A stretch of 37,419 nucleotides of DNA from a virus (UHGV-0125336); one strand, 5' to 3'. Counted from the first letter of the stretch, positions 3,422 through 37,419 are shown. Numbers and translations are program-made. Notes: generated by a model not told the origin, from the letters alone.

Positions 3422-3531
3422 GTATATTTATCTCATGGCTTGTTCTGATTATTTCGGTGGCCTGCGCTATTGGGATTATGCGAATTATTCATTCAATAAA
3501 AAAGATTGAACGCTTTTTCACTGGCGAATAA
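3418..3531 (+). CDS. Small membrane peptide (37 aa), hypothetical
   Basis: ATGA start/stop overlap with the upstream gene suggests translational coupling. Single hydrophobic helix (IFISWLVLIISVACAIGIM). Under 60 aa, so absent from the ORF track. Confidence 0.4.
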   Translation: MSIFISWLVLIISVACAIGIMRIIHSIKKIERFFTGE

Positions 3532-3616
3532 CAGAGCAAATAAAACCACAGATTAAATAAGAAAATGTAAAACAATCCGCATTCGCGGAGGTATTCGCAC
3601 ACGCCAAGGAGGCGTA

Positions 3617-3820
3617 ATGGCAATTAAGCATTTTCCTGTCGTTCGTTTTACCTCCAGAGGGCGTGAATACGAAGTCGACGAACGCCTGATTACCACAATC
3701 GACAAACACCGTTCAGAAAAGGATGCACATCACATCTATCTCACTGACGGCACTTACTTCTGCGCCACGAATGTGGTGCGGGTGAACCTTATCCGACAGG
3801 TACAGGAGTCACGCAGATGA
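3617..3820 (+). CDS. Phage early protein, unknown function
   Basis: 67-aa ORF preceded by AAGGAGG. Confidence 0.5.
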   Translation: MAIKHFPVVRFTSRGREYEVDERLITTIDKHRSEKDAHHIYLTDGTYFCATNVVRVNLIRQVQESRR

Positions 3821-4062
3821 CCATTCTGGACTATATCGCCGCCAATCCGGGGTGTAGCGGTGGAGAAATCGCCGCAGCACTGAATACCCCAACCACAGCC
3901 ATTAATGTGGAGTTACGCCGACTCTGGCGCAGCGGTTCAGTCATAAGAAAAGAGCGCAAAACAGGCGGTCGCTTTTCTTACCAGATAAACCCGATGCCGT
4001 TCGGGTGCGGCAATCCACTTACCAACATGTTTAACCAGCTACTGAAGGAAGCCAGAGCATGA
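3817..4062 (+). CDS. Small phage protein, possible winged-helix DNA-binding fold
   Basis: MTILDYIAANPGCSGGEIAAALNTPTTAINVELRRLWRSGSVIRK resembles a wHTH pattern. Start overlaps the stop of the upstream ORF. Confidence 0.5.
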   Translation: MTILDYIAANPGCSGGEIAAALNTPTTAINVELRRLWRSGSVIRKERKTGGRFSYQINPMPFGCGNPLTNMFNQLLKEARA

Positions 4063-4358
4063 GCGCCATCAACCACCAGGAATTACGCGAACTGGCGACT
4101 GACCTGCAACGAATGGCAACGCCTCAAAAATTACTGGCGTTTCGCGCAATGCTCTCGCCGTCTGCTGTGCTGGCGCTGCTGGATGAGCTGGAGCACGCCA
4201 GAACCACACCTCTCGCCATTCGCCTGACGCTCCGTCATGAAATCGAGGATTTCTGCGCGACGTTGGAGGCGCCAGGCGAACCGGAAACGCCGGAAGCAAT
4301 ACAGCAAGAGCTGCTGCAACGCATTGACAAGGTTTTTGATTTTTTTCTGAACCACTAA
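4059..4358 (+). CDS. Phage early protein, unknown function
   Basis: 99-aa acidic, helical ORF. Start overlaps the upstream stop. Confidence 0.5.
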   Translation: MSAINHQELRELATDLQRMATPQKLLAFRAMLSPSAVLALLDELEHARTTPLAIRLTLRHEIEDFCATLEAPGEPETPEAIQQELLQRIDKVFDFFLNH

Positions 4359-4480
4359 GAAACCAGAACATGCACACACAAAAAAACCGCTTGCCATGCC
4401 GCAATCAGTCAGGTTACATTTCCGCTGCACCTCACAAAACGGGTGCCGGGTTTCGCAGCCTGCTGACTACACAAGCGCAC

Positions 4481-4502
4481 AACCGCGCCAGCGGTTTTTT
4501 TG
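4481..4502 (+). terminator. Candidate intrinsic terminator inside the early operon
   Basis: AACCGC-GCCA-GCGGTT hairpin followed by a T7 run, within the 320-bp non-coding gap 4359..4680. Confidence 0.4.
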
Positions 4503-4680
4503 TGCGTACTGTATTGCCACGTTTTTTTCGCGTCAGAATTATGGCGGGGCGTACGGGGCCGACTTCGGTCGGGCCGGGTTCTTGTGTAGCCGGTACTGCG
4601 AACCTCGTACGTCTCGCCACCCACAGTTTCGCAGCTCTGGATGGTGAGTTTTCACAACTTACTACACAAGGGGCCACACC

Positions 4681-4911
4681 ATGGCAAACCGCAAACCACA
4701 CCGCGCTATCGCGGAGCGTCGTCACATCCAGACTGAAATCAACCGCAGACTTTCCCGCGCATCACGCGTCGCGCAAATCATGCACATCAATATGCTGCAT
4801 GAGCGCAGCCACGCACTATCAAACATTTATTCCGCCTCTGTTTTCAGCTATCTGGCGGATGATCTGCACGAGCTTCAACAGCTCATCCAGCAGCAAAACA
4901 AACTCCATTAA
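4681..4911 (+). CDS. Phage early protein, unknown function
   Basis: 76-aa ORF with AAGGGG RBS 8 nt upstream. Confidence 0.5.
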   Translation: MANRKPHRAIAERRHIQTEINRRLSRASRVAQIMHINMLHERSHALSNIYSASVFSYLADDLHELQQLIQQQNKLH

Positions 4912-4983
4912 CTCCTGTTCCGGGCCTTTCCTGCACCTTGCGGCGGGAGGCCTTCGCACATCTGTAACAAGAGGATTGCCGCA

Positions 4984-5349
4984 ATGATTCTCGCCAACGA
5001 CTTTCTTGAATACCTGCTCAACACAGAACGTGATCTTGCCGCTCGCGTGCGTGATCGTTATGACATGTACCTGAAATCCCTGCCTGTACCGCAGCTCGCT
5101 GACGGAAAGATTGTTATTGATGGTCGCTACATGATTGACAGCCACGAGGGAAATTACAGGCTTTACCGCATTGAAGGTGGCACCCCGTCCGTTATTGGCA
5201 TTTACCAGCGCCCATCCACTGCAATCGTCGATGTGATTGCCGACAGCATCCGCATCACACATCGCCATGCCGACACAGAAGACACCGTGCTGGAAATTCA
5301 GCGGCTGGCTACAGTCTGCCGCGACACCCTGAATGGCATGACGAAGTAA
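4984..5349 (+). CDS. Phage early protein, unknown function
   Basis: 121-aa ORF immediately upstream of gene A. Confidence 0.55.
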   Translation: MILANDFLEYLLNTERDLAARVRDRYDMYLKSLPVPQLADGKIVIDGRYMIDSHEGNYRLYRIEGGTPSVIGIYQRPSTAIVDVIADSIRITHRHADTEDTVLEIQRLATVCRDTLNGMTK

Positions 5350-8254: not shown

Positions 8255-9214
8255 ATGAAAATTTGTATCGATGACGGCTCCACCAACATCAAGCTGGCAT
8301 GGACTGAGAACGGCGAACGCCGCAACGCCATCAGCCCGAACAGCTTCAAGTCGGAATGGTCTGCGCCGTTCGGTGGCACGCAGCCCGCGAACTACATGCT
8401 TGATGGCGTGCGCTATGGTTTTGATCCGGTCAGCGATCGCTTTGTCCAGACGACTGACACGCAATACCAGTACAGCGATGTGAATGTCATTGCCATTCAT
8501 CACGCGCTGGTCAAATCAGGCATCACGCCACAGGAGGTGGATGTGGTTGTCACCCTGCCACTGAGCGAGTATTTCGACACAAACGCACAGCCGGACATAG
8601 CCAACATCAACCGCAAAAAAGCGAACGTTATGCGCCCGGTGGAGTACCAGAACGGCGAAGCATTCACTATCCGTAACGTACGGGTTATGCCTGAATCCAT
8701 TCCGGCTGGCTTTAAGGCACTGGCTGACATGAGTCCGTTTGAATCCCTGCTGATTGTGGATTTAGGCGGAACCACGCTGGATGTGGCAAAGGTTCAGGGA
8801 CAACTGGCAGGTATCAGCCAGGTGTTTTGCGATCCACACGTAGGCGTTTCCCTGATGGCCGATGCCGTACTGTCGGTGATGGCCACTAACGGTATGCGTA
8901 CCAGTCACCACATCGCCAATACCATTATCGAACATCGCCATGATGAAGCCTGGCTGCGCCAGCACATCCACAATGACGCGCATTACGCCAGCCTGATGGC
9001 GGTTATTCGTGAAAAGGAAGAAACACTGAAACAACGCGTGATCCGCGCGCTGGCGGGTTTTTCGGGTTACGGGCGGGTGATGGTTGTCGGTGGCGGGGCA
9101 GAGATTGTGGCACCCGCTATCCGCGAAGCCTGCGGAGTTAATGCGACTTTCATCGCGGACGGGGTGCCACAGTTTGCTCTGGTTAATGGGCTGTACGCAA
9201 TGGGCAAGGAGTAA
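8255..9214 (+). CDS. parM: ParM/StbA-like actin-type segregation ATPase
   Basis: Collinear similarity to plasmid R1 ParM as recalled: N-terminal IDDGSTNIKL, YSDVNV..HHAL, KKAN, VMPESIPAG, DLGGTTLD, GVSL, VGGGAE, LVNG. Confidence 0.8.
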   Translation: MKICIDDGSTNIKLAWTENGERRNAISPNSFKSEWSAPFGGTQPANYMLDGVRYGFDPVSDRFVQTTDTQYQYSDVNVIAIHHALVKSGITPQEVDVVVTLPLSEYFDTNAQPDIANINRKKANVMRPVEYQNGEAFTIRNVRVMPESIPAGFKALADMSPFESLLIVDLGGTTLDVAKVQGQLAGISQVFCDPHVGVSLMADAVLSVMATNGMRTSHHIANTIIEHRHDEAWLRQHIHNDAHYASLMAVIREKEETLKQRVIRALAGFSGYGRVMVVGGGAEIVAPAIREACGVNATFIADGVPQFALVNGLYAMGKE

Positions 9215-22934: not shown

Positions 22935-25781
22935 ATGAAATATGGTGCCATTATCACAGCGGCTGGCGCTGCCAGGCTTGCTGCAGCCACAACAGCAACA
23001 GGCCAGAAGCTGAACATCACTCACATGGCCGTGGGAGATGGTAATGGAAATCTCCCGGAACCATCGGCCTCACAGACCGCCCTGAACAATGAAGTCTGGC
23101 GCGGGACGCTGAATAAAATTACACAGAACAGCAAAGCGCCAAATCAGGTGATTGCGGAACTGGTTATTCCTCCGGAAGTTGGCGGCTTCTGGATGCGGGA
23201 GCTGGGGTTGTATGACGACAGCGGAACCCTGATTGCCGTCGCCAATATGGCAGAAAGCTACAAGCCGTTACTCGCCGAAGGTTCGGGGCGCTCAATGGTC
23301 TGCCGCATGTTCATCATCATCAGCGATATGAACGCGGTGAATCTGTCAGTGGACAGCAGCGTCATTGCCGCAACACAGGAATATGTTAACGAAGCCATCT
23401 CCGGCCTGCACCGCGCCATCATTGATGATGTGGTTCTTCAGCATAAAGTTGTCCACGATATTGACTACACCGGGATTTTTGACGGCGCGGATAAGATGAG
23501 CCAGGGGTTCTGTATCTGTGATACGCCGCAGGGAACCCGAATGTTTCTGCATCAGCCTGTATCGGGTGGCGTAAGGATTGTTGAAACGACATTTAACCCT
23601 GACGGAGAAAACGAAAACCCGACGGTCATTTCGTTTTCTCCCGTTTTCGCTGATATTGGTCACCAGAGTATCGGGGCCGTATGTGAAGACGGTCGCGTGA
23701 TGCTGTATACCCCGACCGCTGACGGCAAGGGTGTGAATATCATCAACTGGAATGGGGCTGACACCAGTCTGACAGATGTCACCCGTACGGAGATTTTCAC
23801 CTCTGACTTTTTTACCGGGGATGAAATTATAACGGTGGCATTGTCGGTAGACGGAAGCCTGTTGATTGTTCAGTCAAGTAATGAAGCCGTCCATCTTCAT
23901 TACAACAGGGATGACCGCCGCACAGTTTATGTTTTCGATCGCGCTTCTCTGACGTTTAAACACCGGATTTATCTGTCCACCCAGTCAATGGTGTCGCAGG
24001 CATTTCAGGGGATGGCCAGCGATGGTCATTATCTGTTTGCTTATTACGGTTATACAGGCGTATTTCTGACTCACCGCATTGTTGTATATAACCTGTCAAC
24101 GGGCGAAGTTGTCAGACAGTTCAATGTGGATGGCGTTCGTGCCAGGTATGGCCGCCAGAAAATGCTGGGGAATGCAGAGCTGGGGTATCCCGTTTTGCAG
24201 GAAGCCGAAGGGCTGGCTCTTCATAACGGAAAACTGTATCTGCTCGATATGGATTTCTGGTGTCAGACAGCCGATGTGGTTTCTTTTGAGGGGGCATACT
24301 TTGCAGCACGTGCAACAAATTTTTCTGGCCGTTCCCCGGTGAATCCATCTTACTGGACGCCTACAGCATATGGAACGGCGGCTGCAACGAAATATGATGC
24401 CACGAAGTCTTATACGTGTGGCGTGGCGACAAAACGCAGCAAAGCTGTGGTTTCCGTGGAGGCTTACGACGGCACAGGCTATCTGGTGGACTCCGGCGTG
24501 GCGTTTCCTGACAGCCATGCCAGCCTTTTTCTGAGTCCCAATGCTGTAAATATAGCCCTGTCACCCAATGAAGACTTCCAGGTGGCAGCCTATGAGCAGA
24601 ATCTGCGCTCGCATCGCCCGTTATTTGAGGTCAGAAAGGAGGCTCCGGATACAGACACTTCTGCTGCTGTTTTTCGTTTGTACGGGGATGCGTTCCGAAC
24701 CGGAGAATACACAGGCCGCTTCGTTCAGTGGAAACACCGACTGAACGCCGTGCACGATTGTCTGGAAATACGCGCTGACGTGGATTTGTTGAGCGGTGGC
24801 GGAATTAACCTTTACTCAATGAACGATACTCAGTCGGCGGGACGCACAAGGCTTTATTGCACCGATGGCAGTGAGACCTGGTCTGTATTATTGAGTCCGG
24901 TCTCGCCGTCATTTCATCCCGACCAGGACAAGGCAATGAATCTGGGGTCATCGCCAAATCGCTGGAATGTGGCATACCTGCAGGGCGTGAATATTAAATC
25001 GGATGACGAAACCCAGAAGCGCATGGCCATCAGCACCACGCTGAAGGCGGGAGCTTTCCAGGTATCAACAGCCGGGAATCTGGGTATTTATGACGATTCT
25101 GCTGACGCTTATGTAATTGCAGCCCGTAGTGACGGCACTGCATTCATGCAGATGGATACAGATATTAACGGTGCATTCCGGCCATCGGTTAACAATACCA
25201 GCGACCTGGGTGCGCCCAACAAAGCGTTCCGGAGCGTGTATCTCTGCAACTCGCCGACCGTTGTGTCGGATGCGACGTTAAAGGATACACCGCGCGATGC
25301 GACAACAGCCGAAAACGCGGCATTTGCAGAAATAGCACGACTTCCGGGCGTGTGGCGCTGGTTACAGAGAATTGAGGAGGAGGGCGAGGACGCGCGTCTG
25401 CACGCCGGGCCGACAGTCCAGGCCGCGATAGCGGTGATGGAGAAACACGGTCTGGACTGGCGGAAATACAGCGCATTTTGTCTGGATTCGTGGGAAGCGG
25501 AGGAGGCACAGTACGAAGATATGCCGGAAGAGTATGAAGATATTCCGGTTCAGCCTGCGATTTATTCGGATGAAGGGGAGCTGTTGAGCGGGACAACCCG
25601 TGTGCTTACCCGACAGGCGGAAAGGGTTCTTGTTCGCCCTGCAACCGAAGCAGGAAGCCGTTATCGCTTCCGGAAAGAGGAGCTTCTCTGGTGGTGTCTG
25701 CGTGCTGTTGTCAGCCAGGTGGATGCGCTGACAGAGAGCATCAGCGCACTTACCCGCCGTGTTGATTTACTGGAGGAATAA
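22935..25781 (+). CDS. H: Tail fibre, P2 gpH-like N-terminus with divergent receptor-binding region and C-terminal intramolecular-chaperone-like domain
   Basis: N-terminal 150 aa conserved gpH anchor. C-terminal 170 aa begin at SDATLKD (25263-25286) and show the auto-cleaving chaperone pattern (..VWRW.., ..GPTVQAAIAVMEKHG.., terminal coiled coil). Confidence 0.85.
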   Translation: MKYGAIITAAGAARLAAATTATGQKLNITHMAVGDGNGNLPEPSASQTALNNEVWRGTLNKITQNSKAPNQVIAELVIPPEVGGFWMRELGLYDDSGTLIAVANMAESYKPLLAEGSGRSMVCRMFIIISDMNAVNLSVDSSVIAATQEYVNEAISGLHRAIIDDVVLQHKVVHDIDYTGIFDGADKMSQGFCICDTPQGTRMFLHQPVSGGVRIVETTFNPDGENENPTVISFSPVFADIGHQSIGAVCEDGRVMLYTPTADGKGVNIINWNGADTSLTDVTRTEIFTSDFFTGDEIITVALSVDGSLLIVQSSNEAVHLHYNRDDRRTVYVFDRASLTFKHRIYLSTQSMVSQAFQGMASDGHYLFAYYGYTGVFLTHRIVVYNLSTGEVVRQFNVDGVRARYGRQKMLGNAELGYPVLQEAEGLALHNGKLYLLDMDFWCQTADVVSFEGAYFAARATNFSGRSPVNPSYWTPTAYGTAAATKYDATKSYTCGVATKRSKAVVSVEAYDGTGYLVDSGVAFPDSHASLFLSPNAVNIALSPNEDFQVAAYEQNLRSHRPLFEVRKEAPDTDTSAAVFRLYGDAFRTGEYTGRFVQWKHRLNAVHDCLEIRADVDLLSGGGINLYSMNDTQSAGRTRLYCTDGSETWSVLLSPVSPSFHPDQDKAMNLGSSPNRWNVAYLQGVNIKSDDETQKRMAISTTLKAGAFQVSTAGNLGIYDDSADAYVIAARSDGTAFMQMDTDINGAFRPSVNNTSDLGAPNKAFRSVYLCNSPTVVSDATLKDTPRDATTAENAAFAEIARLPGVWRWLQRIEEEGEDARLHAGPTVQAAIAVMEKHGLDWRKYSAFCLDSWEAEEAQYEDMPEEYEDIPVQPAIYSDEGELLSGTTRVLTRQAERVLVRPATEAGSRYRFRKEELLWWCLRAVVSQVDALTESISALTRRVDLLEE

Positions 25782-25783
25782 TT

Positions 25784-26068
25784 ATGGACTTAACCCCGGT
25801 GTTCCATGCACTTTGTGCGGTGGCCACTCAGTTTCTGGTAGGTCTTTTTACCGGAAACTGGGCTTACGGAGCGATAGCCGGTTGTACGTTCTTCATTGCG
25901 CGTGAACACACCCAGGCAGAATATCGCTGGATTGAAATGTTCGGGCATGGCAGGCGTATGAATATGCCGTGGTGGGGCGGTTTTGACCCACGCGCGTGGG
26001 ATATGGCAAGTCTGATGGATTTTGCAGTGCCGGTGGTGGCATGTCTGCTGGTCTGGCTGGTCGTATGA
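25784..26068 (+). CDS. Small two-TM membrane protein in the position normally held by gpG
   Basis: 94-aa ORF starting 2 nt after the H stop. Two hydrophobic segments. Not gpG-like. Confidence 0.5.
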   Translation: MDLTPVFHALCAVATQFLVGLFTGNWAYGAIAGCTFFIAREHTQAEYRWIEMFGHGRRMNMPWWGGFDPRAWDMASLMDFAVPVVACLLVWLVV

Positions 26069-26080
26069 CGTAGCAGGAAA

Positions 26081-26105
26081 CAGGGGGATTTGCCCCTGTT
26101 TTTTT
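26081..26105 (+). terminator. Intrinsic terminator of the H operon
   Basis: CAGGGG-GATTTG-CCCCTG hairpin followed by a T7 run. Confidence 0.55.
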
Positions 26106-26222
26106 GTTCAGAATGCAGCCTTCACCATTCGTCTCTAATCGTATTCAGTAATTCGCCCGCAGAAACAAACTAAAATTCATCCCCCACATCACGCCACTGA
26201 AAGCAGACGGTAAACTCCAGAT
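26106..26222 (-). pseudogene. Degenerate remnant of a gpU 3' end
   Basis: About 75-80% identical by eye to 26888..27010 (the intact U 3' end) in the same orientation. Reading frame preserved at the stop (RMVKAAF* versus KMATAAF*), but an in-frame TAG lies upstream. Confidence 0.6.
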
Positions 26223-26525
26223 TTTCAAACCAGCGTCAGAAGTATTTAAATGGCACCAGATGTAATATGCAGGCGATTAATATGGTGTGCTTAAAGATCA
26301 TAAAAGCGGGCAACATTAAAACTCCGGGCTGTGTAAATTACCGCCACTCATAATCAGAGATGAAAACAGAATTAAACTGGCGGCGTGGATTGTATACATA
26401 AAATAAGTTCAGTTGTTGACTTTCACTTCCGTGAGTTGATGAAGGTTATTACAATACACCGGTATGATCTCTCCTCCTTAAAAGGGAGGACTTTTCAGAA
26501 CGCAGAAATTATTTATAATCCCGTA

Positions 26526-26576
26526 GTGTTCTACACATGCCAACATTCTTTGCCCGCCCCGTGCGGGCTTTTTTTT
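26526..26576 (+). ncRNA. Candidate small RNA 1 (about 50 nt)
   Basis: Weak promoter (TTTTCA-N16-TATAAT, -10 at 26514-26519) upstream of a strong terminator (GCCCGC-CCCGT-GCGGGC plus T8, 26552-26576). No convincing ORF. Confidence 0.25.
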
Positions 26577-26666
26577 GCCATAAAGACACAGTAACAAACA
26601 GAATTGTAATCAGAGCAATAAAATCATGAAAAACATTTTCATTGATGACGATAACAATTAAAAATA

Positions 26667-26696
26667 TTGCATTAAATGATTCCCGTTCAATATAAT
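26667..26696 (+). promoter_or_regulatory. Sigma70-like promoter (TTGCAT-N18-TATAAT)
   Basis: -35 TTGCAT at 26667-26672 and -10 TATAAT at 26691-26696. Drives the short transcript ending at the 26740-26763 terminator. Confidence 0.45.
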
Positions 26697-26703
26697 CCCC
26701 CTG

Positions 26704-26763
26704 CAACCAGAAAAATTAAATCTTCACACAATGCATGTTGCCCTCTTTATGAGGGCTTTTTTA
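26704..26763 (+). ncRNA. Candidate small RNA 2 (about 60 nt)
   Basis: Between the TTGCAT/TATAAT promoter and the terminator GCCCTC-TTTAT-GAGGGC plus T6. No ORF. Shares a CACA-ATGC-TTGCCC motif with candidate 1. Confidence 0.35.
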
Positions 26764-26854
26764 TTTCCCGAATATCACCATTGCCATCATCGGGCGATTT
26801 ATATATAGTCAGAATGTATTGACAACATTTTGCTTCTTTTCCATGAAGGCCATA

Positions 26855-26886
26855 AGGGAGTGCTTTTTACACTCCCTCTTTTTTTA
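26855..26886 (+). terminator. Intrinsic terminator abutting the U stop codon
   Basis: AGGGAGTG-CTTTTTA-CACTCCCT followed by a T8 run. Plus-strand oriented. Confidence 0.6.
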
Positions 26887-26887
26887 T

Positions 26888-27352
26888 TCAGAATGCCGCT
26901 GTCGCCATTTTGTCTTTAAGCGTGTTCAGTAATTCGCCCGCAGAAGCAGACTGAAACCTCTCCCTCATATCCTCATCACACCGCTGAAAGCTGATGGAGA
27001 ACTCAATCTTTTTTGCCTTTCCGTAACGATCCAGTTCGGAGCGGGTGGTCTGTAATCCCGTAATCACGTACATTCCGTAAATCTGCCCCGTGCCATCAAT
27101 CAGCGGCCAGGGACATCCTGTGTAGGCCTGGGTGTTCAGTAGTGTCAGCGACACCTCACCGCCGGTAATTTCCGGGTACAGCAAACCGGACAGCGTGATC
27201 TGGTCATCACCTGCGCCGATATACTGCCAGGCCGCAGAGCGGTTAATGCGCTCATTTTTCACATGTCGCCATGTTTTGCTCTGCTGGATCTGCTGATGTG
27301 GCAGCGTGCGCAGCTCAAAAACAAACATGCCGTAGATCATCATCATGGTCAT
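26888..27352 (-). CDS. U: Tail protein, P2 gpU-like
   Basis: ...ITLSGLLYPEITGGEVSL...IDGTG... parallels recalled gpU (...VTLSGTLYPELTGGRLSL...IEGTG...). Confidence 0.85.
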   Translation of the reverse strand: MTMMMIYGMFVFELRTLPHQQIQQSKTWRHVKNERINRSAAWQYIGAGDDQITLSGLLYPEITGGEVSLTLLNTQAYTGCPWPLIDGTGQIYGMYVITGLQTTRSELDRYGKAKKIEFSISFQRCDEDMRERFQSASAGELLNTLKDKMATAAF

Positions 27353-30733: not shown

Positions 30734-31246
30734 TCAGCCAAGCCCGAGCGCGGAACGGATGCGATCGGGCACAATGTCCTTGCCGTCCTTCCGGTAAATG
30801 AAGTTCAGCAGGTCAATCTCCCACAACGGGCGATCGTTAACACTCAGCTTGTAGTAGGTGTTTTTAATGGCGTAAGTGTGTGATGTGGCTTCGCCCTGTT
30901 TGGCTTCCCCCATATCAATTTCCGTCACACGTCCGCGCATTTCGACTTCATACAGGTCGCTTTCTGCATCGGTGTAGTATTCACCCGCAAAACGCAGCAG
31001 CGTGCCGTCAATCGTGCCGCCATACTTAAGGAACAGCTCACGAACTGCGCCCCCCATGACAAAGCTCGCATCAAGCGCGGAGTCGTCCAGACCGAGATCA
31101 ATACTTACCGCACCCATCATGCCACCACCCCGGTAGCTGTCGGTTTTGCGCGTCAGCTTAGGCAGAGTGACGGACGTCACCTTACCCACTTCGTTTTCAC
31201 CATCCACAAACAGCGTAAAAAAGCGAAGATGTTTTGGTACAGCCAT
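30734..31246 (-). CDS. FII: Tail tube protein, P2 gpFII-like
   Basis: 170-aa ORF immediately downstream of the sheath gene on the same strand. Confidence 0.85.
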   Translation of the reverse strand: MAVPKHLRFFTLFVDGENEVGKVTSVTLPKLTRKTDSYRGGGMMGAVSIDLGLDDSALDASFVMGGAVRELFLKYGGTIDGTLLRFAGEYYTDAESDLYEVEMRGRVTEIDMGEAKQGEATSHTYAIKNTYYKLSVNDRPLWEIDLLNFIYRKDGKDIVPDRIRSALGLG

Positions 31247-32430
31247 CAGGCACCTCCCAGCACCGCAAATGCGGGACCAAAGAATTCATCAGTAAACGAC
31301 TGGTAAAGCTCCATGTCTTCCAGCGGGGGAACAGGCGTATATTTGTAGCGAATACGCACGCGCCCCTGACGTAAATTCGTGGTGCCGTTATCCACCACGT
31401 CATACCAGCACGACGCCCCAATCAGTTTCCCGGCAGTAACCAGTGAATCCAGTTTTGCCCTGATGGCACTGATAACATCTTTCACGTTCGCAGGCGTCAG
31501 TGGACTGTCGATGGTTTCAAACTGCGCTTCCGCAATTGAATCAGCCAGCACCTGTGCGGTTCGGGTATACACCTCAAAGATGTAGGCGTTCGTTTCCGGT
31601 GTGCGGTTGCCCCAGAAGCGGAACCCGTTGCGACGAATAATGGTCGTGATTTCTTTGTTGTTGAGGCTGTTGGCATCACTGTCTTCGGCCTGCAACGACC
31701 AGAACACATGCCTGGACATCCCCAGCACATTTTTAACCGGAACGTTGGACAGCGATTTGTGCCAGCCCTGCTCATGGTCAATGTACGCACGAAGGCCGCA
31801 CGCATAGGCAGGCGCGGGGAACGTTTCGTTTTTGCCACTTTTCGGGTTGTAGGCGATGAAGTCCGGCCATAAGAGCATCACCTCACGTTCGTTGAATTTC
31901 TGGCGGTAGGTAATCGCCTCAGCCATCGTGTTACAGCCGTGACATGAGGCATACACAAACGCGCGCAGTTTACCCGCAATCACGCACAGGGATTTTGTTA
32001 CCGCCTCCGTGTCCAGCTCCGGCGCGGCCAGAATACGCGGACGGTATCCGATGCTTTCATCCTGCTCTGCAACAAGCAGCGCATACATCCCCGTATAGCT
32101 GCCGTCAGATTCAGAACCACCGATAACCAGTTGATCCTGCGTTTTTCCGTCTTCTTCTTTGTGTTCAGCCACGCGAACGACGATCACCTTTGTGCTCACC
32201 TGGTCTGCGATGGCCTTAAGCGCACGATAAAGCGTCCCCGTTGTTCCGCATTTTCCCAGCACGTCATTGACGCGGGTCAGCAGTGTGGGCTTGTTCAGCG
32301 GGAACAGCTCCGCATCCGCATCATCCGCCGTTGCCACGATACCGATAACACTGGAATCAACATCGTTAATCGCTGTTACCAGGTCGGTATTTTCCGTAAC
32401 ACGGGCACCATGAAAACGAGTTTCACTCAT
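31246..32430 (-). CDS. FI: Tail sheath protein, P2 gpFI-like
   Basis: ...DADAELFPLNKP...RAF.Y......EA..YRQ.F..RE.M..WPDF.A....EQGWHK(T/S)LSNV...FWGNRT...YTRTAQV...YTPVPPLE... matches recalled gpFI. Confidence 0.9.
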   Translation of the reverse strand: MSETRFHGARVTENTDLVTAINDVDSSVIGIVATADDADAELFPLNKPTLLTRVNDVLGKCGTTGTLYRALKAIADQVSTKVIVVRVAEHKEEDGKTQDQLVIGGSESDGSYTGMYALLVAEQDESIGYRPRILAAPELDTEAVTKSLCVIAGKLRAFVYASCHGCNTMAEAITYRQKFNEREVMLLWPDFIAYNPKSGKNETFPAPAYACGLRAYIDHEQGWHKSLSNVPVKNVLGMSRHVFWSLQAEDSDANSLNNKEITTIIRRNGFRFWGNRTPETNAYIFEVYTRTAQVLADSIAEAQFETIDSPLTPANVKDVISAIRAKLDSLVTAGKLIGASCWYDVVDNGTTNLRQGRVRIRYKYTPVPPLEDMELYQSFTDEFFGPAFAVLGGA

Positions 32431-32586
32431 AGCTTCAGCCCCTTGTATCCGTTAAATGATTCGGCAACAATCATCACCCACCACGCGCGTAATCTCACCC
32501 CTGCGCCGTTCTCCCGCCACGGCGACAACAAAAAGCAGTAACCCCCTACGCACGCACATGCGACCATGCCGCACAGGGAGGGAACA

Positions 32587-33697
32587 GATGACCGATACCA
32601 CCATGCAATTGCTCAGTCAGAGCACAGACCCCGTGAAAATGCCGGATTTTGATATTCTCGCGGAGGGGGAAACACTGTCCGGCGTGGCAGAGCGCCTGAT
32701 GAGCCTGTCACTGACCGACAACCGGGGATTTGAAGCGGACCAGCTCACCATCACGCTGGATGATGCGGATGGTCAGTTGCAGCTACCGCCACGGGGCGCG
32801 CGCCTGACGGTTCTCATTGGCTGGAAAGGAGAACCGCTGACAGAAAAAGGCACTTACATTGTTGATGAAATCGCACACGAAGGACCGCCGGACAGGCTGA
32901 CTGTTTCAGCCAGAAGCGCAGATTTTCGGGATGAATTTAACGTTAAACGTGAGGTGTCCTGGCATGATGTGACCGTTGAGCGCGTGGTATCCGCCATCGC
33001 TCATCGGTACGGTCTGAAACCACAAATCAGCGAAATGCTGATGGATATTGAAATCGACCACGCCGACCAGACCGAAGAAAGCGACATGTCCTTCCTTACG
33101 CGCATGGCGGAAATGCTGGGCGCAATCACTACGGTAAAAAGCGGTAATCTGTTATTCATCATGCCAGGCGGTGGCGTGAACGCACAAGGCCAGCCGTTGC
33201 CCTCGTTCGCCATCACGCGCAGCAGTGGCGATCGCCATCAGTTCCGCATTGCTGACCGCGAAGCGTATACGGGGGTACGCGCTTACTGGCTTGATCTTAA
33301 TTACGGGAAAAAGAAAAAAGTCAGCGTGAAACGCCGCAAACCGCCAAAACCCAAAAAGGAGAAAAGCAGCAGCCGTGAAGGTGATTATATGGAAGGCGCG
33401 GAAGGCAATGTGTTTGTGTTACGCAAGGCTTATCAGAACGAGCAGGCAGCAAGACGCGCAGCGGCGGCAAAGTGGCAGCAGCTACAACGCGGAGCCGCAT
33501 CATTTTCCATCACGCTGGCGCGTGGACGTGCAGAACTCTACCCCGAAATGCATGGCACGGTAACAGGATTTAAAAGCGAGATTGATAATCAGGACTGGAT
33601 TATTGCGAAAGCCGAGCACACCATTGATAACAGCGGCTTTACCACGCAGCTTGAGCTTGAAGCAAAAATCCCGGAATGGATAGCAGAAACAGAGTGA
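32587..33697 (+). CDS. D: Tail/late protein, P2 gpD-like
   Basis: ...LAEGETLSGVAERLMSLSLTDNRG.EADQL.I.L.D.DG.L.LP.RGARLTVLIGW.GE.LT... matches recalled gpD. Start at 32587 after an AGGGAGG RBS. On the opposite strand to FI. Confidence 0.85.
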
Positions 33698-33739
33698 GCA
33701 ACTTAGAATAGCGGCAGCACCACGTTAAGGGAGGTCGCT

Positions 33740-34000
33740 ATGTTCCGTTGTCCGCTTTGTGGCGCATCTGCCCGTATCCGCACCAGTCGTTCGGAAAATG
33801 ATTCAAACACCGTACGGAAAAAATATTACCAGTGTAACAACCTGGAATGCGGCATAAGTTTCTCAACACTGGAAGCTTTCCATAAATTCACATCGAAACA
33901 CGCCCCCGGCGTTCACTCTTCAGAAGGTATCCCGTGGCATGAGTTGCCAGCTTCACACAGGGGAAACAATCAGATGAGTTTGCCTTTACCTCAGAATTAA
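33740..34000 (+). CDS. ogr: Ogr/Delta-family zinc-finger late-gene activator
   Basis: MFRCPLCG...YYQCNNLEC: a CxxC...CxxxxC zinc finger at the N-terminus as in P2 Ogr (MFHCPLC...YHQCQNVNC as recalled). Longer C-terminal tail than P2 Ogr. Confidence 0.75.
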   Translation: MFRCPLCGASARIRTSRSENDSNTVRKKYYQCNNLECGISFSTLEAFHKFTSKHAPGVHSSEGIPWHELPASHRGNNQMSLPLPQN

Positions 34001-34190
34001 CAGGCAGAATTGCCGGAGTAACAAAAAAGCGATAGATTACGCGCGGGTGCCTTTCGGCTGATGGTCGGAGGGAATACCCGAAGGCCAGATGTGGAAAGGC
34101 CCCGGAAAACATTTCTGTTTAACCGAGGCCCTAACCGTCTAACCTTAGCAAGTGATAGGTTAGCGCCTCCCTGAAAAAGGAGCAAGCGCT

Positions 34191-34331
34191 ATGTCGCAAA
34201 AATCGCTTACGGCCATCACGTTCTGCGTGACGGCAATCCTCATCATCTGGATGCTGCACGGTTCGCTGTGCGAAATACGGATGAGCTTCTGGGGAGCGGA
34301 GTTTGCGGCGTTCTTACAGTGTAAGCAGTAA
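34191..34331 (+). CDS. hok: Hok/Gef-family type I toxin (46 aa)
   Basis: MSQKSLTAITFCVTAILIIWMLHGSLCEIRMSFWGAEFAAFLQCKQ: one TM helix, then the SLCEI motif and an AAFL.CK C-terminus, closest to HokA as recalled. SD AAGGAG (34177-34182) sits in a hairpin. A GNRA-loop hairpin follows the stop (34341-34362). Confidence 0.7.
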   Translation: MSQKSLTAITFCVTAILIIWMLHGSLCEIRMSFWGAEFAAFLQCKQ

Positions 34332-34393
34332 GGAAACCGCGACGGGGGAGCAATCCCCCGTCAATCGGTTGCCAGGGTAAGGTCGATAAGGCA

Positions 34394-34404
34394 CCCTATC
34401 TCAC
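34394..34404. repeat. Left target-site duplication (CCCTATCTCAC)
   Basis: Perfect 11-bp direct repeat of 35890..35900, immediately outside the left inverted repeat. Confidence 0.6.
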
Positions 34405-34545
34405 CAATGCCGTTCAGTTAGTTAAGGAATTGAGGTTCGATAGCCCGAACCTCGCGCAGAGGCAATATGACCGAAAGCCTGATTCCTTAATGCCCAAGAT
34501 GAGTCTCTATTCATAAAAGCGCTTAACTACTCGACATTGGCGGTG
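34405..34545. repeat. Left terminal inverted repeat (about 140 bp)
   Basis: Contains nested hairpins (TTAAGGAAT...ATTCCTTAA and GAGGTTCG-ATAGCC-CGAACCTC). Inverse match to 35750..35889. Confidence 0.6.
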
Positions 34546-34740
34546 TATCCCCCGCATTGTCTGAATGCCGCCTCTTACCTTTCGCGGTCAACTGACGACT
34601 TCTAGTTCTAGAACGCCTTGATTTTTTGTACTTGTACATTGAAAAATAACCATAAATTGTTAGCCTGTGCAGTAGACTCAGTGGCGGTAACTGGTCAGCA
34701 TGAAGTGTAAAGTGAATAACGAAGCTCTAAAATTATAGGG

Positions 34741-35574
34741 ATGGTCATGAATAATAAGCTAAAGGTAATTGAGTTAAATAGTCTTGATCTGTTTCGTAAA
34801 GAATTACTAACTACTATAAAGCCAGAGAAAGTAGAGAAATTACTTAGATGGTATCTTCAATCATATGGCGGTGTTAATTTCAAGTTCGGTTATGACAGAC
34901 CAATTTTTAGAGCGCGAAAGTGCCCAAATGAATGCGGATATAATAACATCAGTGAGATATATCCCCCTCCACCAGAAAAATGTAAAATAGGCCGAATGAA
35001 TGATGATGGACAAGCTATCTTCTATGGCGCTTATAGTATCGGAACAGCTTTAGCCGAAATTAATGCAAAAGAAGGGGATTATGTTCACATAGCTCACTTT
35101 AAGATGCCGGAAAATTCAGAGTCTGGAATGCGATGTTTTGCTATCGGTGAGGTCTTTAATGTGTATCACGGTGTAAATACAATTTCAATTGAAGTGTTTA
35201 ATGAAATTCGCGACATCATTAGCAGAATTGGTAAGGACGACATCCGAGCTTTGCTATCATATTTGTATATGGATGCCCTTTCTGCTGAGTTGCTTAATAG
35301 TATCAATGCCCATGAGGTAAATTATATTTACTCAAGAATTTTTTGCCGTCTTCTTCTTGATAAATACCCTGATGTTGATGGTCTTATTTATCCTAGCGCT
35401 AAAATAAAAGGGGCCTCAAATATCGCTTTGCGCACAGAAACAGTTAAATCGAGAATGCATTTAGTTGCTAATCTTGTGTTTAAAGTAAATAAAATTTATC
35501 CATATGGAATAGTAGATTTCAGTATAGTAAAACAAGCCAAAGGACATACATCAGATGGGCGCATCGTTTGGTGA
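34741..35574 (+). CDS. RES-domain-like protein (putative NAD+-targeting toxin fold) with an N-terminal extension
   Basis: KIGRMNDDGQAIFYGAYSIGTALAEI fits the RES pattern (G-R-W/M-N..G...Y.A.S...A..E), and DGLIYPSAKIKGASNIAL fits the second conserved block. No adjacent Xre/antitoxin-like ORF. AT-rich. Confidence 0.5.
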   Translation: MVMNNKLKVIELNSLDLFRKELLTTIKPEKVEKLLRWYLQSYGGVNFKFGYDRPIFRARKCPNECGYNNISEIYPPPPEKCKIGRMNDDGQAIFYGAYSIGTALAEINAKEGDYVHIAHFKMPENSESGMRCFAIGEVFNVYHGVNTISIEVFNEIRDIISRIGKDDIRALLSYLYMDALSAELLNSINAHEVNYIYSRIFCRLLLDKYPDVDGLIYPSAKIKGASNIALRTETVKSRMHLVANLVFKVNKIYPYGIVDFSIVKQAKGHTSDGRIVW

Positions 35575-35749
35575 GCCAAACTTTTAGTTAGCTGATTGAA
35601 AAACCGATGCGTCAGTTTGCACTGCATGTGGTGTATGGGAAGCGCGGGCTTGTAGTGCAGGTCATTTCAGAAGAAGCTAACGAGAAAGCTTAGACATACT
35701 GTGACTACTAAACAAGCAGAAAGCCCGTGTTTATGGGGGGCAATCCACA

Positions 35750-35889
35750 CAACAGGCGATGTCGATTAGTTAATACACTTGTATGAATAGAGACTCATTT
35801 TTGTGCATTAAGGAATCAGGCTTTCAGTCATCTTGCCTCTGCGCGAGGTTCGGGCTATCGAACCTCAATTCCTTAACTGAACTACATTG
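35750..35889. repeat. Right terminal inverted repeat (about 140 bp)
   Basis: Reverse complement aligns with 34405..34545, with a 4-bp indel and scattered mismatches. Confidence 0.6.
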
Positions 35890-35900
35890 CCCTATCTCAC
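35890..35900. repeat. Right target-site duplication (CCCTATCTCAC)
   Basis: Perfect 11-bp direct repeat of 34394..34404, immediately outside the right inverted repeat. Confidence 0.6.
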
Positions 35901-36087
35901 AGCTCTAAATGCAAAAATCCCATGAAACTGTGGGTATTTCATTACACACTGACACTGCTCTACCTTTCTATATGTATCACTCTAAACCAGTTAATCAATT
36001 GGCACTTATCAACAACAAAAAATCTGATAAAATCAAAATGTTTTGTAACAAATTTCAGCTTGTAGTGTTCCAAAGGAGACGGATTAC

Positions 36088-36420
36088 ATGGCATTAATCA
36101 AATGTCCTGAATGCCAGAAAGAGGTCAGCGATTCAGCATTATGTTGCCCTGCTTGTGGTAAACAACTGAAAAAACTTAAGCGTTCATTTTTTGGAAAACT
36201 CATTAAATGGGCTTTTATATTTTTTAATATTTTTATGATCTATACACTTTTAGTTGGACTAGGAGGCGCTGATGAAATAATAAACAATACCACATCCGAT
36301 GCCGAAAAAGCTGGGGCAGTTATTGGTACGGGCTTAGGTTTAATTGCCATTGGAGGCTTATGGGTTATTGGCGATATAATTATCGGAATTTTAGTGTTTC
36401 TTACTAAACCAAAGGGATAA
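36088..36420 (+). CDS. Zinc-ribbon membrane protein, unknown function
   Basis: N-terminal CPEC...CPAC zinc ribbon followed by two hydrophobic helices. AAGGAG RBS. AT-rich. Confidence 0.6.
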   Translation: MALIKCPECQKEVSDSALCCPACGKQLKKLKRSFFGKLIKWAFIFFNIFMIYTLLVGLGGADEIINNTTSDAEKAGAVIGTGLGLIAIGGLWVIGDIIIGILVFLTKPKG

Positions 36421-36424
36421 TAAA

Positions 36425-37318
36425 ATGAAAAATATGATTTTTTCTATAGGTGCATTATTTATATCAATTAGTGTACTGCCTGTTCACGCAGCAACTGAAC
36501 ATAAGAATTTCAATGCAGTGCTCCAGTGCCGAGCGATAGAAAACAATAAAGACAGACTTTCTTGTTACGATAAGTCAATACAACCGACTCGAACGAAAGT
36601 TGCTGAAAAATTTGAAAGCAGGGATCAATGCCCTGATGAGAAAGATGATGACAAACGTTTATCTTGTTATGATCGTTTTTTTTCTCCAACATTTACTCCA
36701 TCTGTAAACTCAAAATCTAAAACGGAAAAGCTAGTAACAACAGAGGCTCAGCAACCAAATCTTTCTGAAATATCTAAATGCCGAGCAGAAAATGATAAAG
36801 AAGCCAGACTAAACTGCTACGATAAACTATTCCCACAGAATGAAGCTGTTCAATCTGAATCACAATTAGAGAAAGCCACAGATGCAGGAAAATGGCACAC
36901 GTCCATTACTACATCGCCAATTGATGATTCGAAAAATGTAATTTTATCGTTAGAAAGTGATGATTATATCAGAACTCCATTTGGAGAAGCTGTTACTCCC
37001 ACTCTGTTTATAGCTTGCCGAGAAAAGAAAACCGAAGTATTTCTTAGTTGGGATGTATATTTAGGCCTTGAACAAACCAGCATGCTGTATCGTCTTGATA
37101 AACAGAAAGCAGTTGAAAGAAACTGGCTAATATCTACAGATACAAAGGCTGTTTTTTATAAAGGTAATGATATTGATTTCATAAGAAAACTTGCCAACTC
37201 ACATAAAATGTACACAAAAATAACCCCCTATAATGAAAGCCCTGTAAGTGCAACTTTCAATTTAAGCGGCCTGTCAAATGCACTAAAACCGCTTCAAGAT
37301 GCTTGTAACTGGAAATAG
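36425..37318 (+). CDS. Secreted protein with three 20-aa Cys-pair repeats, unknown function
   Basis: Signal-peptide-like N-terminus (MKNMIFSIGALFISISVLPVHAA). Repeats LQCRAIENNKDRLSCYDK, DQCPDEKDDDKRLSCYDR, SKCRAENDKEARLNCYDK. Starts 4 nt after the upstream gene. Confidence 0.6.
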   Translation: MKNMIFSIGALFISISVLPVHAATEHKNFNAVLQCRAIENNKDRLSCYDKSIQPTRTKVAEKFESRDQCPDEKDDDKRLSCYDRFFSPTFTPSVNSKSKTEKLVTTEAQQPNLSEISKCRAENDKEARLNCYDKLFPQNEAVQSESQLEKATDAGKWHTSITTSPIDDSKNVILSLESDDYIRTPFGEAVTPTLFIACREKKTEVFLSWDVYLGLEQTSMLYRLDKQKAVERNWLISTDTKAVFYKGNDIDFIRKLANSHKMYTKITPYNESPVSATFNLSGLSNALKPLQDACNWK

Positions 37319-37336
37319 TATATACCTCCCCAATAT

Positions 37337-37378
37337 CAGATGACAAAACGCCCGTGAAAACGGGCGTTTTGTCATCTG
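37337..37378. terminator. Perfect 18-bp-stem palindrome, candidate bidirectional terminator
   Basis: CAGATGACAAAACGCCCG-TGAAAA-CGGGCGTTTTGTCATCTG, with A/T runs inside both arms. Lies between the converging plus-strand operon and the minus-strand partial ORF. Confidence 0.55.
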
Positions 37379-37419
37379 TAACTCGAAAATGTGGTCATTG
37401 CGTGGACATACGATGATAT
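37372..37419 (-). CDS. Partial ORF (C-terminal 15 codons); possibly the 3' end of a second integrase gene
   Basis: Minus-strand translation ...ISSYVHAMTTFSSYR* resembles the int C-terminus in this window (...VSVHAVSTGD*). DNA 37392-37409 matches 251-268 at 15 of 18 positions. Too short to be sure. Confidence 0.2.
   Translation of the reverse strand: MSSYVHAMTTFSSYR

What the first reader, a model, noticed from the sequence alone, without database searches (positions are those of the whole stretch)
26069..26887. Z/fun-position moron with no protein genes: four plus-strand terminators and small-RNA candidates
About 800 bp between the H operon and U contains four plus-strand intrinsic terminators and at least one good sigma70 promoter (26667-26696) driving a 60-nt transcript, plus a second weaker promoter-terminator unit. 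The only ORFs are implausible ones running through terminators. This is the second cargo hot spot of P2-like phages, so an RNA-only cassette here would be unusual.
Basis: partly seen in the sequence, partly recalled or inferred. Interest (0 to 1): 0.7.

Follow-up and report, generated by a model that had tools for sequence, protein, structure and literature searches.

The report
Fibre-swap scar plus candidate prophage small RNAs
The "gene-free" 800 bp in this E. coli prophage is half wreckage from a tail-fibre swap and half a conserved non-coding spacer, which probably encodes one to three small regulatory RNAs whose expression has not been tested.

Summary
The interval is not one RNA-only cassette, and it is not at the P2 Z/fun site.

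**Left half (26069-26505): a recombination scar.**
- It holds the fibre-operon terminator T1, a dead 128-bp copy of the 3' end of gene U, and a tail-fibre-assembly (tfa) pseudogene.
- An incoming fibre cassette left these behind. Its fibre carries its own S74 chaperone domain, which made tfa redundant.

**Right half (26495-26887): the lineage's native tfa|U intergenic region.**
- It is 36% GC and occurs in 72 of 5426 complete E. coli genomes. It is absent from other P88-like phages, which have a single hairpin here.
- It carries three tandem promoter-like/terminator units, predicting RNAs of about 51, 60 and 70 nt.
- Variability matches these elements. The unit-2 -10 box is invariant inside a hypervariable patch. 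The 3' part of RNA2 plus T3 varies at 3/48 columns, against 51/154 at U third codon positions.
- RNA2 has a variable 5' end and a conserved 3' end, like EHEC prophage anti-sRNAs, but it does not match their Rfam models.

Expression and targets are untested. Interest is moderate.

The parts
26075..26104 (+). T1: intrinsic terminator closing the present fibre operon (H-like fibre plus orf94). The hairpin has an A-tract upstream and T7 downstream.
   Evidence: -17.4 kcal/mol, z = -4.6. Its T-run and the following bases repeat those at T4 and the U stop (repeat D2).
26098..26226 (-). U' remnant: the last ~128 bp of a second, diverged copy of tail gene U, with an in-frame stop. Non-functional.
   Evidence: Direct repeats D1/D2, 79-83% identical to 26874-26971. 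tblastn of U residues 114-148 gives E = 8e-6 with a stop in frame. The same remnant sits in relatives L002-L004, L006, L011 and L012.
26281..26505 (+). Pseudogene of a tail-fibre-assembly gene (tfa, Caudo_TAP). It keeps the start region (MVCLKIIKAGNIKT...) and the C-terminal third, with an internal deletion and in-frame stops.
   Evidence: Alignments to relatives that have annotated tfa fragments and to the intact 187-aa tfa of strain 135. tblastn gives E = 3e-8 with a stop in frame. The intact homologue matches Pfam PF02413.
26492..26576 (+). Unit 1: promoter-like TTTTCA-16-TATAAT (TTTACA in relatives), a predicted ~51-nt RNA (26526-26576) and T2 (stem 26552-26568, then T8). T2 is also the terminator of the ancestral fibre-tfa operon.
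   Evidence: 13/82 columns vary, against 51/154 at U third codon positions (p = 0.005). 5 of the 6 T2 stem pairs are invariant.
26577..26666 (.). AT-rich spacer with no sign of constraint.
   Evidence: 32/90 variable columns, the same as U third codon positions.
26667..26762 (+). Unit 2, the best sRNA candidate: TTGCAT-18-TATAAT, a predicted ~60-nt RNA (about 26703-26762) and T3 (stem 26740-26756, then T6). The first ~17 nt are allelic. Next comes the invariant UUAAAUCUUCACACAAUGCAUG.
   Evidence: The -10 block 26689-26699 varies at 0/11 columns, while its flanks vary at 14/22 and 12/17. The 3' part plus T3 varies at 3/48 (p = 1e-4). All 6 T3 stem pairs are invariant. Fold.
26781..26886 (+). 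Unit 3: TTGCCA-17-TATAGT, a predicted ~70-nt RNA (about 26816-26885) and T4 (stem 26855-26877, then T7). T4 ends one base before the U stop codon.
   Evidence: The promoter block varies at 2/29 columns (p = 0.003). T4 has one compensatory G-C to C-G change, and the small upstream hairpin has one C-G to U-A change.
26888..27352 (-). Gene U (tail protein), the last gene of the inverted FI-FII-E-T-U operon. It is the right-hand border of the interval and the yardstick for neutral variation.
   Evidence: Pfam Phage_P2_GpU, E = 9.5e-40. PGAP annotation in the identical SCU-176 copy. Variable columns at codon positions 1/2/3 are 11/5/51 of 154.

Best explanation
The interval is a composite of two parts.

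**Shown: the left part, 26069-26505.** This is the scar of a tail-fibre cassette replacement.
- The resident phage had the layout fibre - tfa - 390-bp spacer - U (convergent). This layout is still intact in E. coli strain 135.
- An incoming cassette replaced the resident fibre. It carried a fibre with a C-terminal S74 self-chaperone domain, orf94, terminator T1 and the last 128 bp of the donor's U.
- The now superfluous and untranscribed tfa decayed to a pseudogene.

**Shown: the right part, 26495-26887.** This is the lineage's native tfa|U intergenic region.
- It is an AT-rich accretion, absent from other P88-like phages.
- It holds three same-strand intrinsic terminators. Each is preceded at 49-68 nt by a sigma70-like promoter.

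**Inferred, about 50-60% likely for at least unit 2.** These are small RNA genes transcribed by host RNA polymerase in the lysogen.
- Unit 2 would give a ~60-nt RNA with an unstructured 5' region and a terminator hairpin plus U-tail, the usual Hfq-type build.
- It would act in trans by base pairing. Its allele-specific first ~17 nt and/or the invariant 22-nt stretch would serve as the pairing surface.
- The target is unknown.

T2 and T4 additionally stop plus-strand transcription from running antisense into the tail operon.
For: **Anatomy**
- Direct repeats of T-run plus U 3' end lie 780 bp apart.
- tblastn detects the U and tfa remnants, each with an in-frame stop.
- Strain 135 has an intact tfa followed by the same 380-bp spacer and U.
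- Relatives show different stages of tfa decay.
- The window's fibre has a Peptidase_S74 domain.

**Lineage**
- Every U homologue with at least 54% identity lacks D downstream.
- P88 has an invertase at this junction.
- Other genera have gaps of 25-250 bp with 0-1 hairpin, 2 in two loci.
- Nothing similar to the spacer was found in phages, plasmids, GTDB species representatives or 52 U loci from other genera.

**Function of the spacer**
- Three of the six promoter-to-terminator units in the whole 37-kb window (both strands) sit here in tandem.
- The joint shuffle probability is 0.002-0.008.
- Variability is heterogeneous and tracks the predicted elements, against a yardstick of 51/154 at U third codon positions:
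  - -10 of unit 2: 0/11
  - its flanks: 26/39
  - 3' part of RNA2 plus T3: 3/48
  - P3: 2/29
  - spacer 26577-26666: 32/90
- 17 of 20 terminator stem pairs are invariant, with one compensatory change.
- The variable-5'/conserved-3' design matches the prophage anti-sRNAs described in PMC4104026.
Against: - There are no expression data of any kind.
- Only about 12 distinct spacer sequences exist, all from E. coli. Covariation is therefore almost nil, and mosaic recombination could mimic heterogeneous constraint.
- Overall the spacer is no better conserved than U (86-92% against 93-95%).
- Each promoter-like site alone is expected in 12-31% of shuffles of this AT-rich DNA.
- The unit-2 -35 hexamer is weak (3/6) and the spacer is 18 nt.
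- No Rfam family matches.
- No target was found in the phage or among 15 core sRNAs (best z = -2.4 over about 100 tests).
- Related phages manage with a single hairpin here, so the spacer is not needed for tail-gene expression.
Confidence: 0.6

Rival explanations
1. Terminator stack only. The 393-bp spacer merely insulates two convergent late operons. T2, T3 and T4 are redundant terminators that protect the tail operon from antisense read-through. The promoter-like boxes are chance products of AT-rich DNA, and no RNA with a function of its own is made.
For: All hairpins point the same way, towards U. T2 and T4 sit where operon terminators are expected, and T4 is positionally equivalent to T1. 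Single promoter-like sites are common in shuffles (12-31%). Terminator stems are the most invariant elements.
Against: A terminator needs only a hairpin and a U-tract. Here constraint also covers the 22 nt upstream of T3, the 29-nt P3 block and an 11-nt -10 block inside a hypervariable patch. Related phages use one hairpin at this junction, so triple termination is not a family requirement. All three terminators having a promoter-like site at sRNA distance has a joint shuffle probability of 0.002-0.008.
Confidence: 0.25
2. Non-functional leftovers. The whole interval, spacer included, is decaying debris from earlier cargo or cassette exchanges. The low-variability blocks reflect recent recombination or hitch-hiking with U.
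For: The left half demonstrably is such debris. The locus is mosaic: T is only 73-83% identical among relatives whose U is 93-95% identical. The element has a narrow distribution, 72 of 5426 genomes.
Against: No protein or DNA remnant is detectable in 26506-26887. tblastn with P88 invertase, fibre and tfa gives E > 1. Local alignment to the U 3' end is not above shuffles. No blastn hits were found elsewhere. The low-variability blocks are short and bracketed on both sides by neutral or hypervariable sequence, and they coincide with predicted functional elements.
Confidence: 0.1
3. A small protein. The conserved block 26717-26815 encodes the 25-aa ORF 26731-26808 (MHVALFMRAFLFPEYHHCHHRAIYI), or another micro-ORF.
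For: The ORF coincides almost exactly with the least variable block.
Against: There is no Shine-Dalgarno sequence. The ORF runs through the T3 hairpin and U-tract. One extra T in the H1827/L009 allele group shifts the frame. The substitutions are 5 non-synonymous to 1 synonymous, by my reading. There is no Pfam hit for the longer ORFs tested, 26509-26706 (-) and 26676-26822 (+). Other micro-ORFs lose their ATG in relatives.
Confidence: 0.03

Closest known systems
AsxR / AgvB anti-sRNAs of EHEC lambdoid prophages (Tree et al. 2014, PMC4104026; Rfam RF02703, RF02702)
   Same: Both are prophage-borne, in an accessory (moron-type) intergenic site next to convergent genes. Both are 51-60 nt, with an unstructured 5' part followed by a 6-bp GC-rich terminator hairpin and a U-tail. 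Both have a variable 5' end and a highly conserved 3' part among alleles.
   Different: The host phage family differs (P88-like Peduoviridae, not lambdoid) and so does the site (tfa|U, not downstream of PR'). The units lie in tandem on one strand, not in convergent pairs. The Rfam models do not detect them even in an 86-nt search at E <= 10, although they find AsxR/AgvB in the Sakai control. Pairing to GcvB or FnrS is not above noise. Expression and Hfq binding are unknown.
Lysogenic-conversion morons of P2 (Z/fun between G and FI; tin and old elsewhere in the P2 genome). Stated from my own knowledge of the P2 literature.
   Same: AT-rich accessory DNA placed just downstream of the tail-fibre/tfa genes, with its own promoter-like and terminator signals, and variable among related phages.
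   Different: Those morons are protein genes. Here no ORF survives. The right-hand neighbour is U on the opposite strand, not FI, because the FI-U block is inverted in this lineage.
Escherichia phage P88 (Xuanwuvirus, Peduoviridae), tfa / invertible segment / DNA invertase | U junction
   Same: Same gene order and orientation on both sides. The U protein is 77% identical.
   Different: P88 has a second tfa, an alternative fibre end and a Hin/Gin-type invertase here, then a single hairpin before U. The window has none of these and no crossover-site motif; it has the 393-bp spacer instead.
Tail-fibre cassette exchange between prophages, leaving tfa pseudogenes
   Same: orf94 and its fibre cassette occur at about 90% DNA identity in 2068 of 5426 E. 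coli genomes, including Rac-type lambdoid prophages. The resident tfa is left as a fragment, and PGAP annotates such fragments in relatives.
   Different: This scar also carries 128 bp of the donor's U. That marks the donor as another P88-like phage and produces the 780-bp direct repeat.

Membership tests
P2 Z/fun-position moron | Lies between the tail-fibre assembly gene G and the sheath gene FI | tested here: not met
   The right neighbour is U on the minus strand, and FI lies 4.4 kb further on, also on the minus strand. This is the P88-type layout.
P2 Z/fun-position moron | Foreign, AT-rich DNA with its own promoter and terminator | tested here: met
   36-39% GC against 52% for the window. 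Promoter-like and terminator motifs are present. Promoter activity itself was not tested.
P2 Z/fun-position moron | Carries an expressed protein-coding conversion gene | tested here: not met
   There is no intact or conserved ORF. Pfam finds nothing for the two longest ORFs.
AsxR/AgvB anti-sRNA family (Rfam RF02703/RF02702) | Scores at or above the family's gathering threshold with the covariance model | tested here: not met
   There is no AsxR or AgvB hit at E <= 10 in 2-kb and 86-nt searches. The positive control in Sakai scored 88.1 bits for AsxR (above its 63-bit gathering score) and 40.9 bits for AgvB (below its 56-bit gathering score).
AsxR/AgvB anti-sRNA family (Rfam RF02703/RF02702) | 51-60 nt, variable 5' end, conserved 3' region with an intrinsic terminator | tested here: met
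   The predicted RNA2 is about 60 nt. Its first 17 nt vary at 12/17 columns and its 3' 48 nt at 3/48. Both ends are predicted, not mapped.
AsxR/AgvB anti-sRNA family (Rfam RF02703/RF02702) | Pairs with and antagonises a core sRNA | tested here: inconclusive
   Duplex scan against 15 K-12 sRNAs gave a best z of -2.4 (SgrS), which is not significant after about 100 tests. The AgvB-GcvB control gave z = -2.6, while the AsxR-FnrS control was not recovered.
Hfq-type trans-acting sRNA (general class) | Own promoter, single-stranded body, Rho-independent terminator with a U-tail of 6 or more | tested here: met
   These are motif-level findings only.
Hfq-type trans-acting sRNA (general class) | Stable transcript detected, Hfq-bound, with a defined target | not testable with these tools
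   No transcriptome or CLIP data are available here.
Tail-fibre assembly gene (Pfam Caudo_TAP), as a pseudogene | Detectable homology to intact tfa but a disrupted reading frame | tested here: met
   tblastn E = 3e-8 with an in-frame stop. There is an internal deletion relative to SCU-172 and strain 135.
Type I toxin-antitoxin locus | Conserved small hydrophobic ORF overlapped by, or adjacent to, an antisense sRNA | tested here: not met
   The only hydrophobic ORF (26509-26706, minus strand, TTG start) is broken by indels in relatives and has no family hit.

The most novel reading that the evidence does not exclude
The tfa|U spacer is an RNA-only accessory module. It would be a tandem array of up to three sigma70-driven sRNA genes in a P88-like (Peduoviridae) prophage. 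RNA2 would be a modular riboregulator whose 5' targeting end has been swapped between alleles. It would be a functional analogue of the lambdoid anti-sRNAs, evolved independently in a different phage family and acting on host or competing-phage transcripts in lysogens, including ST131 carriers.
Probability: 0.3. Interest if true: 0.6.

Novelty: new member of a known kind. Interest (0 to 1): 0.4.

Why it matters
If the RNAs are real, the idea of short, modular sRNAs carried as prophage cargo would extend from lambdoid phages of EHEC to the P2/P88-like family, and to commensal and ExPEC E. coli. The two natural 5' alleles would also provide a ready-made test of targeting.

The scar itself is a clean, datable example of how tail-fibre cassettes with self-chaperoning fibres move between prophage families and make tfa genes obsolete.

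For genome scanning, the result is a caution. Here a gene-free, terminator-rich interval turned out to be partly stacked operon ends and pseudogenes. Comparative variability separated that debris from the candidate functional part.

Tried and rejected
1. **Known RNA families.** Rfam searches over 2 kb and 86 nt returned only terminator-driven hits far below gathering scores. ARAGORN found no tRNA or tmRNA.
2. **Homologues outside E. coli.** A pattern scan of GTDB species representatives found nothing. Four of the nine metagenome pattern hits were chance matches in unrelated DNA. nhmmer of the spacer profile against 52 U loci from other genera found nothing. blastn against phages and plasmids found nothing.
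3. **A stack of older U scars.** I tested whether the T2-T3 and T3-T4 spacers are older U remnants. Local alignments to the U 3' end are not above shuffles (p > 0.09), and the shared TCAGAATG octamer is chance.
4. **Paralogy of the three units, or homology to AsxR/AgvB.** Only the terminator segments align. Unit 1 against AgvB looks significant versus mononucleotide shuffles, but it is terminator-like sequence and the covariance model does not support it.
5. **Small ORFs on either strand.** They are not conserved, are frameshifted, or run through terminators.
6. **Remnants of a P88-type invertase, second fibre or crossover site.** None were found.
7. **Targets.** There is no complement of the invariant 17-mer elsewhere in the prophage. 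Nothing convincing appeared among 15 core sRNAs. A whole-window duplex scan was abandoned as uninformative.

Full report
**What is there.**
The window is a complete P2-like prophage of E. coli. It has integrase, gene A, ParM, portal, terminase, capsid, lysis, baseplate and fibre genes on the plus strand. The FI-FII-E-T-U tail block is on the minus strand. The interval 26069-26887 lies between orf94, the last gene of the fibre operon (plus strand), and the stop codon of U (minus strand).

The consensus scan confirms four strong plus-strand intrinsic terminators: T1 at 26083-26097, T2 at 26552-26568, T3 at 26740-26756 and T4 at 26855-26877. It also finds one weak site, and none on the minus strand. 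The 2-kb scan found 8 sites against 2.3 +/- 1.6 in shuffles. Two further promoter-like sites score 10/12, at 26492-26519 and 26781-26809. No intact, plausible ORF exists.

**The left half is a recombination scar.**
The repeat finder shows that 26094-26190 is a 79-83% direct repeat of 26874-26971. That stretch is the T-run of T4 plus the 3' end of U. tblastn confirms a U remnant at 26128-26226 on the minus strand with an in-frame stop.

Downstream, 26281-26505 aligns to tail-fibre-assembly genes. PGAP annotates 55-70-aa tfa fragments at this spot in relatives, and SCU-172 retains about 370 bp more. The window copy has the typical N-terminal codons and the C-terminal third, but with an internal deletion and stops (tblastn E = 3e-8).

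E. coli strain 135 shows the undisturbed layout: fibre, an intact 187-aa Caudo_TAP tfa, a 380-bp spacer, then U. The window's own fibre ends in a Peptidase_S74 intramolecular-chaperone domain. Such a fibre needs no Tfa. The fibre/orf94 cassette is widespread, with orf94 at about 90% identity in 2068 of 5426 genomes, including Rac-type prophages.

The simplest history is as follows. A cassette consisting of fibre(S74), orf94, T1 and the donor's U end replaced the resident fibre. T1 now stops transcription upstream of tfa, and tfa decays. T1 and T4 occupy the same position relative to a U stop codon.

**This is not the Z/fun site.**
All 30-odd U homologues with at least 54% identity, from Serratia, Salmonella, Enterobacter, Pantoea, Photorhabdus, Providencia and others, lack D downstream. 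Only distant homologues (47% or less) have the canonical U-D order. The inverted FI-U block is therefore an old lineage trait.

The closest isolated phages belong to the P88 group (Xuanwuvirus), with U 77% identical at the protein level. In P88 the same junction holds a second tfa, an alternative fibre end and a DNA invertase, followed by a single hairpin before U. Citrobacter youngae has the same arrangement. In other genera the gap after U is 25-250 bp with 0-1 hairpin, 2 in two loci.

**The right half is a lineage-specific spacer with signs of function.**
The stretch 26495-26887 is 36% GC. It occurs in 72 of 5426 complete E. coli genomes, always at this junction and never annotated. It is also present in a few IMG/VR and metagenome contigs. 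It was not found in phage or plasmid collections, GTDB species representatives, or U loci of other genera. Rfam gives nothing.

It contains three tandem units in which a promoter-like site lies 49-68 nt upstream of a terminator's stem end. The whole window, on both strands, has only three other such pairs, all with weak hairpins inside genes. Shuffling the sequence upstream of each terminator gives a promoter-like site in range in 12%, 31% and 20% of trials, for a joint probability of 0.002-0.008.

**Comparative test.**
With 15 sequences, I compared the fraction of variable columns with U third codon positions. Those vary at 51/154, while positions 1 and 2 vary at 11/154 and 5/154.

| Segment | Variable columns | p vs U third positions |
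|---|---|---|
| Unit 1, 26495-26576 | 13/82 | 0.005 |
| Spacer 26577-26666 | 32/90 | n.s. (neutral-like) |
| Unit 2 -35 and spacer, 26667-26688 | 14/22 | 0.0085 (elevated) |
| Unit 2 -10 block AATATAATCCC, 26689-26699 | 0/11 | 0.019 |
| First 17 nt of predicted RNA2 | 12/17 | 0.0034 (elevated) |
| Next 48 nt of RNA2 including T3 | 3/48 | 1e-4 |
| P3 block, 26781-26809 | 2/29 | 0.003 |
| RNA3 body, 26810-26854 | 7/45 | 0.025 |
| T4, 26855-26886 | 5/32 | 0.057 |

The first 17 nt of RNA2 occur as two alleles, CCUGCAACCAGAAAA... and UUCCGGAACAUAGAAC.... Seventeen of 20 terminator stem pairs never vary, and T4 has one compensatory G-C to C-G change. Constraint thus extends beyond what a terminator needs and coincides with the predicted -10 boxes and the RNA2 body.

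There are caveats. Few independent alleles exist, the locus is mosaic (T is only 73-83% identical), and the spacer as a whole is slightly less conserved than U.

**Mechanism proposed.**
Shown: T1 and T2 are the ends of the present and former fibre operons. T4, like T1, abuts the U stop codon.

Inferred: host sigma70 polymerase makes short RNAs from P2, and possibly from P1 and P3, in the lysogen. RNA2 is predicted to be about 60 nt, with an unstructured 5' region plus a terminator hairpin and U6 tail. It has the modular build reported for prophage anti-sRNAs: 51-60 nt, variable 5' end, conserved 3' region (PMC4104026).

RNA2 is not a member of that family. The AsxR and AgvB models find their Sakai copy (88.1 and 40.9 bits) but not the window. 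No target emerged in the prophage or among 15 core sRNAs. I put the probability that at least one functional sRNA is made here at about 50-60%.

**Alternatives.**
- A pure terminator stack explains the hairpins but not the constrained -10 boxes or the 22-nt invariant stretch. The family normally uses a single hairpin here.
- Pure debris is unlikely for 26506-26887, because no remnant is detectable and the variability is patterned.
- The 25-aa ORF 26731-26808 overlaps the most conserved block. However, it lacks a ribosome-binding site, runs through T3, is frameshifted in one allele group, and shows mostly non-synonymous changes.

**Verdict.**
Half of the "RNA-only moron" is a fibre-swap scar, and the site is the P88-type tfa|U junction rather than Z/fun. 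The remaining 393 bp is a credible, previously undescribed candidate for prophage-borne small RNAs. If real, it would be a new member of a known kind. Interest is moderate (0.4) until expression is shown.

Noticed in passing
window 22935-26068: The fibre gene ends in a Peptidase_S74 intramolecular-chaperone domain. The small gene after it (orf94, no Pfam family) has ~90% DNA homologues in 2068 of 5426 complete E. coli genomes, for example beside pinR in a Rac-type lambdoid prophage. This is a fibre cassette shared across phage families.
   Followed up: partly
window 31246-33697: FI (minus strand) and the D ORF (plus strand, 413 aa) start only 25 bp apart and diverge. The Phage_GPD match begins at residue 135. 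In the SCU-176 prophage, which is identical across the finding interval, PGAP calls only a 266-aa VgrG/Pvc8-like CDS plus a pseudogene fragment. The D N-terminus and the FI promoter region look rearranged.
   Followed up: no
window 26069-26887, minus strand: There is no minus-strand intrinsic terminator downstream of U. The T4 and T1 hairpins lack a U-tract in that orientation. It is unclear where the FI-U late transcript ends, and whether it runs antisense into the fibre operon.
   Followed up: no
window 8255-9214: A full-length ParM actin-like segregation protein (Pfam StbA_N plus ParM_N) lies in the early region of an integrated P2-like prophage.
   Followed up: no
window 33700-37419: To the right of D the window carries a RES-domain ORF (34741-35574), a zinc-ribbon ORF and a VasI-like ORF. 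The otherwise matching SCU-176 prophage has DUF3800, ogr and hok next to ihfA. The right end, and possibly the insertion site, differ between carriers.
   Followed up: no
window 26765-26790: The 98%-identical allele group shows a tight cluster of five substitutions (26769, 26776, 26779, 26786, 26790) in the otherwise conserved T3-P3 stretch. One of them changes the P3 -35 hexamer from TTGCCA to TTGCCT.
   Followed up: partly
L046 (Citrobacter youngae) 3531-5231; L077 (phage P88) 5031-7735: Relatives carry a Hin/Gin-type invertase and an invertible fibre/tfa segment exactly where the window has the 393-bp spacer. The window lineage has lost, or never had, this phase-variation module.
   Followed up: partly
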